Made by a program: the position numbers and the translations under genes. A stretch of DNA of 64,000 nt. It comes from Mobula hypostoma. Lineage: Eukaryota. Each line of letters starts with the position of its first letter. The first letter of the stretch is position 1. Of the stretch, positions 30,701 through 33,700 are shown piece by piece. Below the pieces are notes generated by a model. The model did no database searches, was not told the DNA's origin, and worked only from the letters and a program-made list of their open reading frames with translations. The stretch spans positions 64,296,001 to 64,360,000 of the forward strand of contig NC_086097.1 of assembly GCF_963921235.1 (NCBI RefSeq), written 5' to 3'.

Positions 30701-33700
30701 GAACTAATACACATTTTAATAGTACGGTAGTAATATTGGTAGTGTGCTAATTTGTTCTGTATTTCATTTAAATACTTAATCTTTAACTCAGTTAAATGGT
30801 AGTTTGTCTTTTTCATACATTTTTAACTATATCCATGAAACTTTTGCTAATTGGGGTAAAAATGTACTAGGCCCAATGTGTCCCAAATAACTGGAATTCA
30901 CTGTACCCCCACGAAGTCTAGGTACTCTCACCACAGCTTGCATTCCCATTTATCTTTTCTTAGTTTAAACAGCAGAAAACAACTGTTTTAAGATTAAAAC
31001 TTGGCTTTACTTAAAGTATGATACATAGCAGAAAACTAAGCAAAATGGTTACACAATGACTGATGCGACAATAATTGGTTAAATTGGTTAAACAATGAAC
31101 TGTGTTTTGCCCAAACTTTTAGAGTACTCATACGCATCCTTTATAAAACTAGGGAACAGAGAGAAATGTTTTAAAGGTATAATTTTGAGTATTTTCCATA
31201 TTTGAATACAAGAGCCTGAAAGACTATTAAAATAAATTGATGTCAGGAGATCTAATCACGTTACACACCTTTGAAGAAAAATAATTATGGATAAACAACA
31301 AGAAAAATCCTGTAGGATTTTTTTAATATAATAGTTTAAGTTTTTAAACTTACCATTGGGAAAAAAACCAATGATGGCATATTTCTTACATCACAGTTAA
31401 ACAATATTTGATAGTTAACTATACCTTTTCCTTTGTGTTTTTTCTGTTTTTGTTCACTCAATTTATCTAAAGGTAGATCATGCAAGTCTAGGTTGTACAA
31501 GTTTCGAGCTAACACTTTGGTCAAAGTTTCCATTGTCATTGCCCATTCAGTGATCAGTTCTTCCCAGCATGTAAGTGATGACAAAACCACCAATAATTCA
31601 TCCCATAGCTCCCGGGAAACATACACGTCCAAGTTTGCTTTGATCCAGGCTACTATGAGTGTCTAGACAATAAAAAAGACAATTGATACACAATTAGAAA
31701 ATAGATGCACATCCATCCAGTCCAACTTTAACTTTTTCATCTAAAGATCCATTAAAACGTTTTCTTATTGTATTATTTAAAGTACTCAATATTACTCTAG
31801 AAAATAATAGGTTATCAAGTTGAGAAGTTTAATTTAAAAAAACAGCAGATGATAAGTAAACATTCTGACAGATTACCTAAAAACTCCTATCCAAGCTAAA
31901 ATCTATATTAAGAAGAACAGTCCTTCACAATTTACAAAAAAAAACTAACCATTTTTCTCATATCCGGAAAGTTTTTGCCCAATCCCTCAATCATACACAT
32001 CTCCTTGATGTCCAGGTGCCCTCATCACAGCTTGTATTCCCACCTAACATTACCATCAACAAATTTGAAATTATCACATGTGGTCCATTCAGCCAATTCA
32101 CCAAGTTGTGAATAGCTGGGGCCAAAACATGAATAACAGCCAGAGCCTCCTAGTATCTCTTAGCTATTAGTAGTTGCTTTTCCTTCCTCAACTGGACTGG
32201 GCCCTTGCTTCAAGTATTTCTAAAAAGTTCTCAGATTTATTTAGCTCCCCAACACTAACTTTGAGAAATTCATCTTAGAAATATTTCAGAATTCATTTTC
32301 TACATTGCCCACTCCAATTTAACCTGTCCAGACTTTTGGTGGATTAAAGACCCACATGATGACTACATTAACCCTTGTCACATACACCTCTAATTTCTTC
32401 ATTTATATCAAGCCCTGCATCATTGCAGGAAACATGAAACTGTAGATGCTGGATCTGGAGTGAAAGAAAACAAACTGCTGAGGAAATTTAAAAACGCAAA
32501 CAACAGGAAATCTGCAGATGCTGGAAATTCAAGCAACACACATTAAAGTTGCTGGTGAACGCAGCAGGCCAGGCAGCATCTCTAGGAAGACGTACAGTCG
32601 ACGTTTCGGGCCGAGACCCTTCGTCAGGACTAACTGAAGGAAGAGCTAGTAAGAGATTTGAAAGTGGGAGGGGGAGGGGGAGATCCAAAATGATAGGAGA
32701 AGACAGGAGGGGGAGGGATAGAGCCAAGAGCTGGACAGGTGATTGGCAAAGGGGATATGAGAGGATCATGGAACAGGAGGTCCAGGGTGAAAGACAAGGG
32801 AGGCGGAGGGGAACCAGAGGATGGGCAAGGGGTATAGTCAGAGGGACAGAGGGAGAAAAAGGAGAGTGAGAGAAAGAATGTGTGTATAAAAATAAGTAAC
32901 AGATGGGGTACGAGGGGGAGGTGGGGCATTAGCGGAAGTTAGAGAAGTCGATGTTCATGCCATCAGGTTGGAGGCTACCCAGATAGAATATAAGGTGTTG
33001 TTCCTCCAACCTGAGTGTGGCTTCATCTTTACAGTAGAGGAGGCCGTGGATAGACATGTCAGAATGGGAATGGGATGTGGAATTAAAATGTGTGGCCACT
33101 GGGAGATCCTGCTTGCTCTGGCGGACAGAGCGTAGGTATTCAGCAAAGCGGTCTCCTAGTCTGTGTCCGGTCTCGCCAATATATAGAAGGCCACATCGGG
33201 AGCACCGGATGCAGTATATCACCCCAGCCGACTCACAGGTGAAGTGTCGCCTCACCTGGAAGGACTGTTTTGGGCCCTGAATGGTGGTGAGGAAGTGTAA
33301 GGGCATGTGTAGCACTTGTTCCGCTTACAAGGATAAGTGCCAGGAGGGAGATCAGTGGGGAGGGATGGGGGGGATGAATGGACAAGGGAGTCACGTAGGG
33401 AGCGATCCCTGCGGAAAGCAGAGAGAGGTGGGGAGGGAAAGATGTGCTTAGTGGTGGGATCCCGTTGGAGGTGGCGGAAGTTACGGAGAATAATATGTTG
33501 GACCTGGAGGCTGGTGGGGTGGTAGGTGAGGACCAGGGGAACCCTATTCCTAGTGGGGTGGCGGGAGGATGGAGTGAGAGATGTACGTGAAATGGGGGAG
33601 ATGCGTTTGAGAGCAGAGTTGATAGTGGAGGAAGGGAAGCCCCTTTCTTTAAAAACGGAAGACATCTCCCTTGTCCTGGAATGAAAAGTCTCATCCTGAG

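What the first reader, a model, noticed from the sequence alone, without database searches (positions are those of the whole stretch)
32595..32632. Minimal hammerhead ribozyme in the Penelope terminal repeat, in the sense of the RALGAPA1 pre-mRNA
Seen: the minus strand reads UAGUC CUGACGA AGGGUCUCGGCCC GAAAC GUC^GACUG. It has both catalytic boxes, stem I (AGUC/GACU plus U-G), stem II (GGG/CCC after an extra A) and palindromic ACGU instead of stem III; predicted cleavage is between 32600 and 32599. Known: Penelope-like elements carry such minimal hammerheads, thought to cleave as dimers. Inference: this intact copy is transcribed within the host intron and could cleave only with a partner RNA, while the inverted arm at 34702-34739 could sequester it by base-pairing.
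Basis: partly seen in the sequence, partly recalled or inferred. Interest (0 to 1): 0.7.

Follow-up and report, generated by a model that had tools for sequence, protein, structure and literature searches.

The report
Penelope retrotransposon hammerhead in RALGAPA1 intron
This is a real but ordinary minimal hammerhead-ribozyme motif at the end of a broken Penelope-type jumping gene that recently landed in an intron of RALGAPA1, and it is predicted to be paired off by the element's own inverted copy, so it is likely a silent passenger rather than a regulator of the host gene.

Summary
Confirmed. Minus strand 32595-32632 holds a minimal type I hammerhead motif: both boxes, stem I, a 4-bp stem II, ACGU in place of stem III, C17 at 32600. 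It is the window's only strict hit (2 of 300 shuffles give one). A model built only from motifs of related Penelope-like elements (PLEs) finds it at 41 bits.

It sits in the 3' pseudo-LTR of a 5'-truncated, frameshifted, Neptune-type PLE (32489-34798, 13-bp target duplication, 268-nt inverted arm) in a RALGAPA1 intron of a likely cartilaginous fish. One contig of a relative about 6% diverged shows the empty site, so the insertion is young. The family is extremely abundant, and an inverted-arm insertion puts one motif on each strand, so 'sense to the host' says nothing.

The inverted arm is transcribed first and is predicted to pair 35 of 38 positions. No intact partner lies in the window. Contig depth in a probable RNA run fits normal splicing. 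Cleavage was not tested.

Known class (Cervera & de la Pena 2014). The scan has 358 notes on Penelope hammerheads in other DNA. Low interest.

The parts
32595..32632 (-). Minimal type I hammerhead motif: stem I 32632-32628 with 32599-32595, CUGACGA 32627-32621, extra A 32620, stem II 32619-32608 (4 bp, CUCG loop), GAAA 32607-32604, palindrome ACGU 32604-32601, C17 32600
   Evidence: sequence
32489..34798 (-). Whole 5'-truncated Penelope-like insertion (the four bases 34799-34802 are shared between element end and target duplication)
32476..32488 (.). Target-site duplication, left copy (13 bp, identical to 34799-34811)
   Evidence: an empty-site contig joins 32475 to 34799 (record 9)
34799..34811 (.). 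Target-site duplication, right copy
33288..34511 (-). 5'-truncated reverse transcriptase plus thumb and CX4CXXC linker; matches residues 277-681 of an 803-aa relative at 56%
32929..33288 (-). GIY-YIG endonuclease region, out of frame with the RT in this copy (frame change near 33288, where family contigs have four more bases); stop codon 32931-32929
32532..32928 (-). 3' pseudo-LTR: pyrimidine-rich stretch, hammerhead and downstream leader
   Evidence: position by analogy with PMC4209133 and PMC8557442
32489..32531 (-). 43-nt 'tail' extension, present at this end only and absent from the inverted arm; the same pattern in the fold-back copy at 22416-22632
34535..34802 (+). Inverted pseudo-LTR arm, 268 nt, 16 differences from 32532-32799; transcribed first in the host pre-mRNA as the antisense of the hammerhead arm
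34702..34739 (+). Second, slightly decayed hammerhead copy (antisense to the host; G10.1-C11.1 pair lost)
31663..35357 (-). Host RALGAPA1 intron (GT..AG, 3,695 nt) between exons ending at 35358 and starting at 31662
34812..34935 (.). Older, degenerate fold-back remnant of a related pseudo-LTR tail into which the element inserted (its other part lies at about 32425-32475)
   Evidence: profile hits 34797-34828(-) and 34832-34945(+)

Best explanation
The motif is the standard minimal hammerhead in the pseudo-LTR of a young, 5'-truncated and frameshifted Penelope-like retrotransposon in a RALGAPA1 intron, and at this locus it is likely inert because the element's inverted arm is predicted to base-pair with it as the host intron is transcribed.

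Shown: the motif, the element anatomy, the target duplication, the empty site in a relative, the host intron and its orientation.

From the literature: in active PLEs such motifs lack stem III and cleave slowly, as double hammerheads in tandem transcripts, or with help from the element's protein.

Inferred: (1) the copy arose by GIY-YIG nicking and target-primed reverse transcription that started internally in the tail and left an inverted arm; (2) RALGAPA1 transcription makes the antisense arm first, and 1.7 kb later the emerging pseudo-LTR zips onto it before the hammerhead is complete; (3) the intron is spliced out and degraded, and the motif is intact because little time has passed, not because of selection.
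For: Element anatomy: RVT_1 and GIY-YIG hits; 56% identity to full-length PLE proteins, with the N-terminal 276 residues missing and a frame change; 13-bp duplication.

Age: an organism C contig joins 32475 to 34799, while organism B contigs run into both element ends. Flank divergence is 1.2-1.4% for A-B and 5.6-6.3% for A-C; the two arms differ by 6%, about 3% each; P(no change in 38 nt) = 0.32.

Abundance: 363,746 contigs of one DNA run lay on the 4.5-kb stretch, with summed depth five to six orders above the flanks (not a copy number); 11 tail remnants in this window, 7 host-sense and 4 antisense.

Class: 14 strict motifs in 11 of 80 related PLE loci against 0.02 per control replicate. With stem I and the palindrome not demanded, 15 and 13 of 19 sense-strand hits have them, against 5 and 0 of 51 control hits.

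Sequestration: 35 of 38 positions pair with 34702-34739 in the whole-element MFE; arm duplex -532 kcal/mol, already -333 before the motif emerges.

Host splicing: in the probable RNA run a depth-55.1 contig starts exactly at exon edge 31662, the same depth stands on the upstream exon, and unique intron DNA has depth 0.
Against: No experiment and no raw reads: all runs laid were contigs, which cannot show RNA ends or rare cleavage products. The splice joint row itself was not displayed (3,858 joints not shown), so splicing is inferred from depth, and the run's RNA label is a guess. The empty site rests on one contig of depth 7. Folding ignores proteins, helicases, editing and co-transcriptional kinetics over 1.7 kb. 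The host-sense copy is the better preserved of the two arms at all 3 differing hammerhead positions, which is weakly compatible with selection (one locus).
Confidence: 0.85

Rival explanations
1. The motif cleaves the RALGAPA1 intron at a low rate by pairing in trans with hammerheads in the many other transcripts of the family, or with help from PLE protein, before the arm captures it. The effect is a small cost or a tolerated cut in an intron.
For: Core, stem I and stem II are intact. The family is very abundant and 25,811 contigs of a probable RNA run lay on the stretch. A nested double-hammerhead can be drawn at -16.7 kcal/mol. Dimers cleave weakly in vitro (PMC4209133), and the Anolis PLE hammerhead cleaves when element protein is added (PMC11167929).
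Against: The intramolecular arm duplex is far more stable and forms first. A local upstream hairpin also competes for the stem I 5' arm (p 0.58). PMC11167929 found no RNA-seq reads ending at the cleavage site in Anolis. Depth fits a spliced host mRNA.
Confidence: 0.09
2. The insertion has been co-opted as a regulator of RALGAPA1, as a ribozyme, a long double-stranded intron hairpin or a cryptic splice acceptor.
For: Sense orientation; shared by organisms A and B; a 268-bp hairpin is a plausible editing or silencing substrate (general knowledge); pyrimidines followed by AG lie just 5' of stem I.
Against: The insertion is absent from a relative about 6% diverged, the motif's state fits neutral decay, both arms are in one intron so they cannot pair across an exon, and no splice-type joint into the element was among the joints shown.
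Confidence: 0.04
3. The motif is a chance match, or a hammerhead-like sequence that has no catalytic role even in active elements.
For: Rfam hammerhead models do not score it. The 38-mer folds no better than shuffles (z -1.27), and its lowest-energy fold pairs the core with the cleavage site. PMC4209133 leaves open 'functions other than self-cleavage'.
Against: Chance is excluded. Stems vary in sequence but keep pairing across related elements. The active dimer ranks below two folded monomers in 14 of 14 related motifs as well, so the energy ranking does not single this one out.
Confidence: 0.02

Closest known systems
Minimal hammerheads (min-HHR) in the pseudo-LTRs of metazoan Penelope-like elements (Cervera & de la Pena 2014, PMC4209133)
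   Same: Type I, both catalytic boxes, extra nucleotide between 9 and 10.1, G10.1-C11.1, palindromic 15.2/16.2, no stem III, short stem I, located in the pseudo-LTR, many solo copies through the genome; reported there for Xena, Poseidon and Neptune elements of fishes.
   Different: Stem II is 4 bp (7-8 bp in the Schistosoma examples). The host is likely a cartilaginous fish, and no shark, skate or Callorhinchus entry came up in the 2 supplementary files searched (one file could not be searched). Li et al. 2026 did find hammerhead-bearing retrozymes in one chondrichthyan.
Canonical EN+ PLEs of the Neptune clade (Craig et al. 2021, PMC8557442; structure also in Arkhipova et al. 2013, PMC3846280)
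   Same: [quoted passage not shown]
   Different: This copy is broken (N-terminus missing, frameshift) and has no tandem second unit. Clade placement rests on the linker and the vertebrate host, not on a tree with named references.
Poseidon element PAc of Anolis (Frangieh et al. 2024, PMC11167929)
   Same: Hammerhead near the 5' end of the unit; two element ends about 40 nt apart that fit two internal RT start sites (43 nt here).
   Different: Different clade (no linker in Penelope/Poseidon). Its hammerhead was tested (protein-assisted, dispensable for insertion in vitro); this one was not.
Non-LTR retrozymes of animals (Li, Clavereau & Pollet 2026 preprint)
   Same: Type I hammerhead derived from PLE pseudo-LTRs.
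   Different: Retrozymes are non-coding tandem arrays that supply their own partner; this is one motif in a coding, non-tandem copy.
Conserved intronic hammerheads of amniotes (HH9/HH10; names recalled, paper only seen cited in PMC4209133)
   Same: A hammerhead in the sense of a host intron.
   Different: Those are recalled as canonical, monomer-active and deeply conserved; this motif lacks stem III and is absent from a relative about 6% diverged.

Membership tests
PLE min-HHR (PMC4209133) | CUGANGA and GAAA boxes, U16.1-H17 | tested here: met
PLE min-HHR (PMC4209133) | [quoted passage not shown] | tested here: met
   A32620; G32619-C32608
PLE min-HHR (PMC4209133) | Palindromic 15.1-16.1 with no stem III or loop 3 | tested here: met
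   ACGU at 32604-32601; three palindrome types (ACGU, AUAU, AGCU) in related loci
PLE min-HHR (PMC4209133) | Lies in the pseudo-LTR of a PLE, on the element's sense strand | tested here: met
   about 300 nt after the GIY-YIG stop on the same strand; 12 of 14 strict hits in related loci are on the ORF strand
PLE min-HHR (PMC4209133) | Compensatory changes in stems across families | tested here: met
   7 of 8 pairs change on both sides in 13 sequences (partly circular because the descriptor demanded pairing); non-circular check: 15 of 19 against 5 of 51. Variation among copies of this same family could not be read (478 rows not shown)
PLE min-HHR (PMC4209133) | Self-cleavage at C17 as a dimer | not testable with these tools
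   only contigs were available
Canonical type I hammerhead (Rfam hammerhead families) | Stable stem III, reaches a family score | tested here: not met
   not filed here
EN+ Penelope-like element | PLE-type RT with C-terminal GIY-YIG (CxxC...H..H) | tested here: met
   both Pfam scores are just under the gathering cut-offs (27.8 vs 29.6; 21.6 vs 22.6)
EN+ Penelope-like element | Pseudo-LTR in direct or inverted form, tail at one end, short target duplication | tested here: met
Neptune clade | CX2-5CXXC linker between RT and EN (shared with Nematis) | tested here: met
   CX4CXXC at the end of the RT frame; two of its cysteines invariant in 26 aligned proteins
Neptune clade | RT groups with named Neptune references in a tree | not testable with these tools
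   no named reference was among the hits; Neptune is inferred because only Neptune and Poseidon were found in vertebrates in the 2026 preprint
Non-LTR retrozyme | Non-coding tandem repeat with a hammerhead in consecutive units | tested here: not met
   single motif, coding body, no tandem unit

The most novel reading that the evidence does not exclude
In this lineage the family is so abundant that its transcripts supply dimer partners in trans, so host-sense intronic hammerheads really cut pre-mRNAs; insertions with an inverted arm, like this one, are tolerated in genes because they shield their own ribozyme. This predicts that unshielded, intact, host-sense copies are depleted in introns genome-wide while shielded ones are not, and it would make these genomes a natural test of whether PLE hammerheads cleave in vivo.
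Probability: 0.08. Interest if true: 0.6.

Novelty: new member of a known kind. Interest (0 to 1): 0.16.

Why it matters
As it stands, little: it extends a described class to a likely cartilaginous-fish family and gives a clean dated example, with target duplication and empty site, of the inverted PLE structure. It would matter if cleavage were found in the host pre-mRNA, because in vivo activity of PLE hammerheads is still unshown in the papers read (PMC4209133, PMC11167929), and a genome with this many copies would make that question testable by orientation bias and end mapping.

Tried and rejected
Rfam: no hammerhead family. No whole genome is held, so genome-wide copy counts and orientation bias could not be computed.

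Searches for the same family: the family-specific pattern found 0 stretches in metagenome contigs. The relaxed pattern found 2 viral contigs, neither scored by the model at E <= 0.05, so treated as chance. Protein searches of viral contigs found no relative.

Sequencing runs: no RNA holder is listed on record; all runs laid were contigs and the table of molecule ends was empty, which is no evidence on cleavage.

A conserved upstream 'off-switch' hairpin: present in both window arms (p 0.58 and 0.73; 1 and 2 of 30 shuffles reach this) but in only 3 of 25 related motifs, with a mean below the shuffles; rejected as a general feature.

Dimer energetics as a verdict on this copy: rejected, since 14 of 14 related motifs show the same ranking.

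The count of 112 of 120 homologues with CX2-5CXXC is not used: the pattern can also match cysteines inside the GIY-YIG domain.

Strand depletion: 7 host-sense against 4 antisense remnants shows none, but the numbers are small, most are decayed, and 8 of the 11 built the profile.

Literature searches for a shark or ray description gave nothing specific; the library is partial, so this is not a claim of absence. Lunse et al. (PMC5785218) is not held; only its title was seen, in reference lists.

Full report
OBSERVATION. The minus strand at 32632..32595 reads as stated: stem I (5 pairs with the outer U.G), CUGACGA from C3 at 32627, an extra A, stem II, GAAA, CG, U16.1 and C17 at 32600. Stem II has a fourth, U.G pair and a CUCG loop. 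A strict descriptor finds only this site in the window, and 2 of 300 dinucleotide shuffles give any hit. Rfam finds nothing at gathering score and no hammerhead family at E <= 10 locally. I read this as a consequence of the missing stem III (inference).

HOST. The exon 31423-31662(-) matches RALGAPA1. The two best hits by identity are sharks (100% and 98% local identity); the top row by E-value is a 71% gecko record named alpha-2 and flagged as contaminated. Twenty-one tblastn segments of the shark protein run in order along the minus strand. The motif lies in the GT..AG intron 35357..31663, in host sense. 'Cartilaginous fish' is an inference from these hits.

ELEMENT. On the minus strand, 34511-33288 encodes RT and thumb, matching residues 277-681 of an 803-aa relative at 56%, and 33288-32941 matches its GIY-YIG domain in another frame. 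Pfam gives RVT_1 at 2.6e-6 and GIY-YIG at 2.7e-4, both slightly under gathering. Family contigs carry four more bases at the frame change. A CX4CXXC linker precedes the nuclease; PMC8557442 (passages) gives this linker for Neptune and Nematis, and the 2026 preprint (part 1 of 5 and passages) found only Neptune and Poseidon in vertebrates, so Neptune is likely. After the stop come the pseudo-LTR, the motif and a leader. A 268-nt inverted copy of this end caps the truncated 5' side (34535-34802, 16 differences). A 43-nt tail is present at one end only, and a 13-bp duplication flanks the unit. This anatomy matches the descriptions in PMC8557442 and PMC3846280 (passages). The target was an older, decayed remnant of a related tail.

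AGE AND ABUNDANCE. I laid 4 of the 24 listed runs. One contig of organism C aligns to 31260-32475 and continues without a gap at 34799-35681: the empty site with one copy of the duplication. Organism B contigs run into both ends of the element. Flank divergence is 1.2-1.4% (B) and 5.6-6.3% (C); the arms differ by 6%, about 3% each if they were identical at insertion, which fits insertion around or after the split from C. At that age an unchanged 38-mer has probability 0.32, so intactness needs no selection. In the same-species DNA run 363,746 contigs lay on the stretch, with summed depth five to six orders above the flanks; the tool warns this is no copy number, so I say only 'very abundant'. 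The window holds 11 tail remnants, 7 host-sense and 4 antisense, with none in a reversed decoy (8 of the 11 built the profile). Of these, only the finding passes the strict descriptor; the model also scores 34701-34740(+) and, weakly, 40404-40431(+), both antisense to the host.

THE MOTIF IS A CONSERVED PART OF SUCH ELEMENTS. They hold 14 strict motifs in 11 loci, 12 on the ORF strand, against 0.02 per Markov replicate. Eight of the 12 lie about 100-260 nt after an ORF end. In L004 and L009 a second copy lies in an inverted arm, as here. Asking only for the boxes and stem II gives 19 sense-strand hits, of which 15 have stem I, 13 have the palindrome plus U16.1 and 18 have the extra base; the control gives 5, 0 and 28 of 51; the antisense strand gives 2, 2 and 4 of 9. 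In an alignment of 13 of the 14 (one near-duplicate from L080 left out), 7 of 8 pairs change on both sides (partly circular). A model from these 13 finds the window motif at 41 bits and 35 sites in 82 loci, 13 of them its own training set.

HOW IT LIKELY BEHAVES HERE. Literature: single min-HHRs showed no cleavage and dimers or trimers low cleavage (PMC4209133, parts 1-2 of 4). The Anolis hammerhead cleaved only with element protein, was dispensable for insertion in vitro, and left no RNA-seq ends at the site (PMC11167929, parts 1-2 of 4). A review states the tandem-dimer model (PMC6765202, passages). Computed: the 38-mer's best fold pairs the core with the cleavage site, and the open-core state has probability 0.0007. 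The drawn double hammerhead (-16.7 kcal/mol) is above two folded monomers (-25.8), but so it is for 14 of 14 related motifs, so this says nothing special about this copy. What is specific is the arm: in host sense it is made first, its duplex with the growing pseudo-LTR reaches -333 kcal/mol before the motif appears and -532 in full, and 35 of 38 motif positions pair with 34702-34739 in the whole-element fold. In the probable RNA run, a 2,358-nt contig of depth 55.1 fits exactly the exon 31423-31662, the same depth stands at 35370 and accounts for the bin depths over the upstream exon, and bins of unique intron DNA have depth 0. That fits normal splicing, though the joint row was not displayed and contigs cannot show rare cut products.

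AGAINST MY READING. Nothing here measures cleavage. The empty site is one contig. At the 3 motif positions where the arms differ, the host-sense arm keeps the better hammerhead state. Proteins or kinetics could let the motif fold before capture.

COMPARISON AND VERDICT. Every sequence feature that PMC4209133 lists for PLE min-HHRs is met; catalysis is untested; canonical hammerhead and retrozyme membership are not met. That paper already reports such motifs in Neptune, Poseidon and Xena elements of fishes and by the thousand as solo copies. My searches found no description for this family, but the library is partial and one supplementary file could not be searched. The scan's own notes hold 358 findings with 'Penelope hammerhead' in at least 29 genomes, and no look-alike of this sequence. 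Verdict: real, new member of a known kind, likely inert at this locus; interest 0.16.

Noticed in passing
window 22416-22632: A 217-nt fold-back made only of the family's leader and tail and its inverted copy, with the junction inside the hammerhead core, the tail at one end only, and a short duplication sharing two bases with the element end.
   Followed up: partly
window 40401-40499: Solo hammerhead-plus-leader copy that lacks the stem I 5' arm. It sits between two stretches that look like distant parts of a CR1-type LINE (recalled resemblance), suggesting insertion with target deletion.
   Followed up: no
window 15313(-), 22534(+), 34842(+), 40401(+), and 32637-32631(-): Several short copies begin within a few bases of C3, all four runs show many loose ends at 32631, and a TCAGTT initiator-like word (motif recalled) lies just 5' of stem I. 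Possible reading: the element's RNA starts at the motif and solo copies are complete cDNAs of the leader from an internal RT start. Arm lengths in related loci vary, so this is only a lead.
   Followed up: partly
window 34684-34704(+) and 32650-32630(-): A branch-point-like TACTAAC, pyrimidines and AG lie just 5' of stem I in the antisense arm; the host-sense arm has G at that adenosine (32646). PMC4209133 notes an intron ending at helix I in Drosophila Penelope. One locus only; no splice evidence seen.
   Followed up: no
window 32425-32475 and 34812-34935: The insertion target is itself an older, degenerate fold-back remnant of a related pseudo-LTR tail, present in organism C's empty site.
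   Followed up: partly
window 19421-21073 (-): A 551-codon open frame of which only the first part (21049-20882) matches the shark RALGAPA1 isoform used; possibly a long alternative exon extension.
   Followed up: no
window 36492-38129: 98-nt inverted repeats, 90% complementary, around a broken ORF that looks like a Tc1-type transposase (recalled resemblance).
   Followed up: no
window 54409-54655: Short element with 71-nt arms, 99% complementary, 105 nt apart; MITE-like.
   Followed up: no
L015:2260-2299, L079:264-303 and 2182-2221: Related motifs read CCGA instead of CUGA at the first box in more than one locus, a possible core variant.
   Followed up: no
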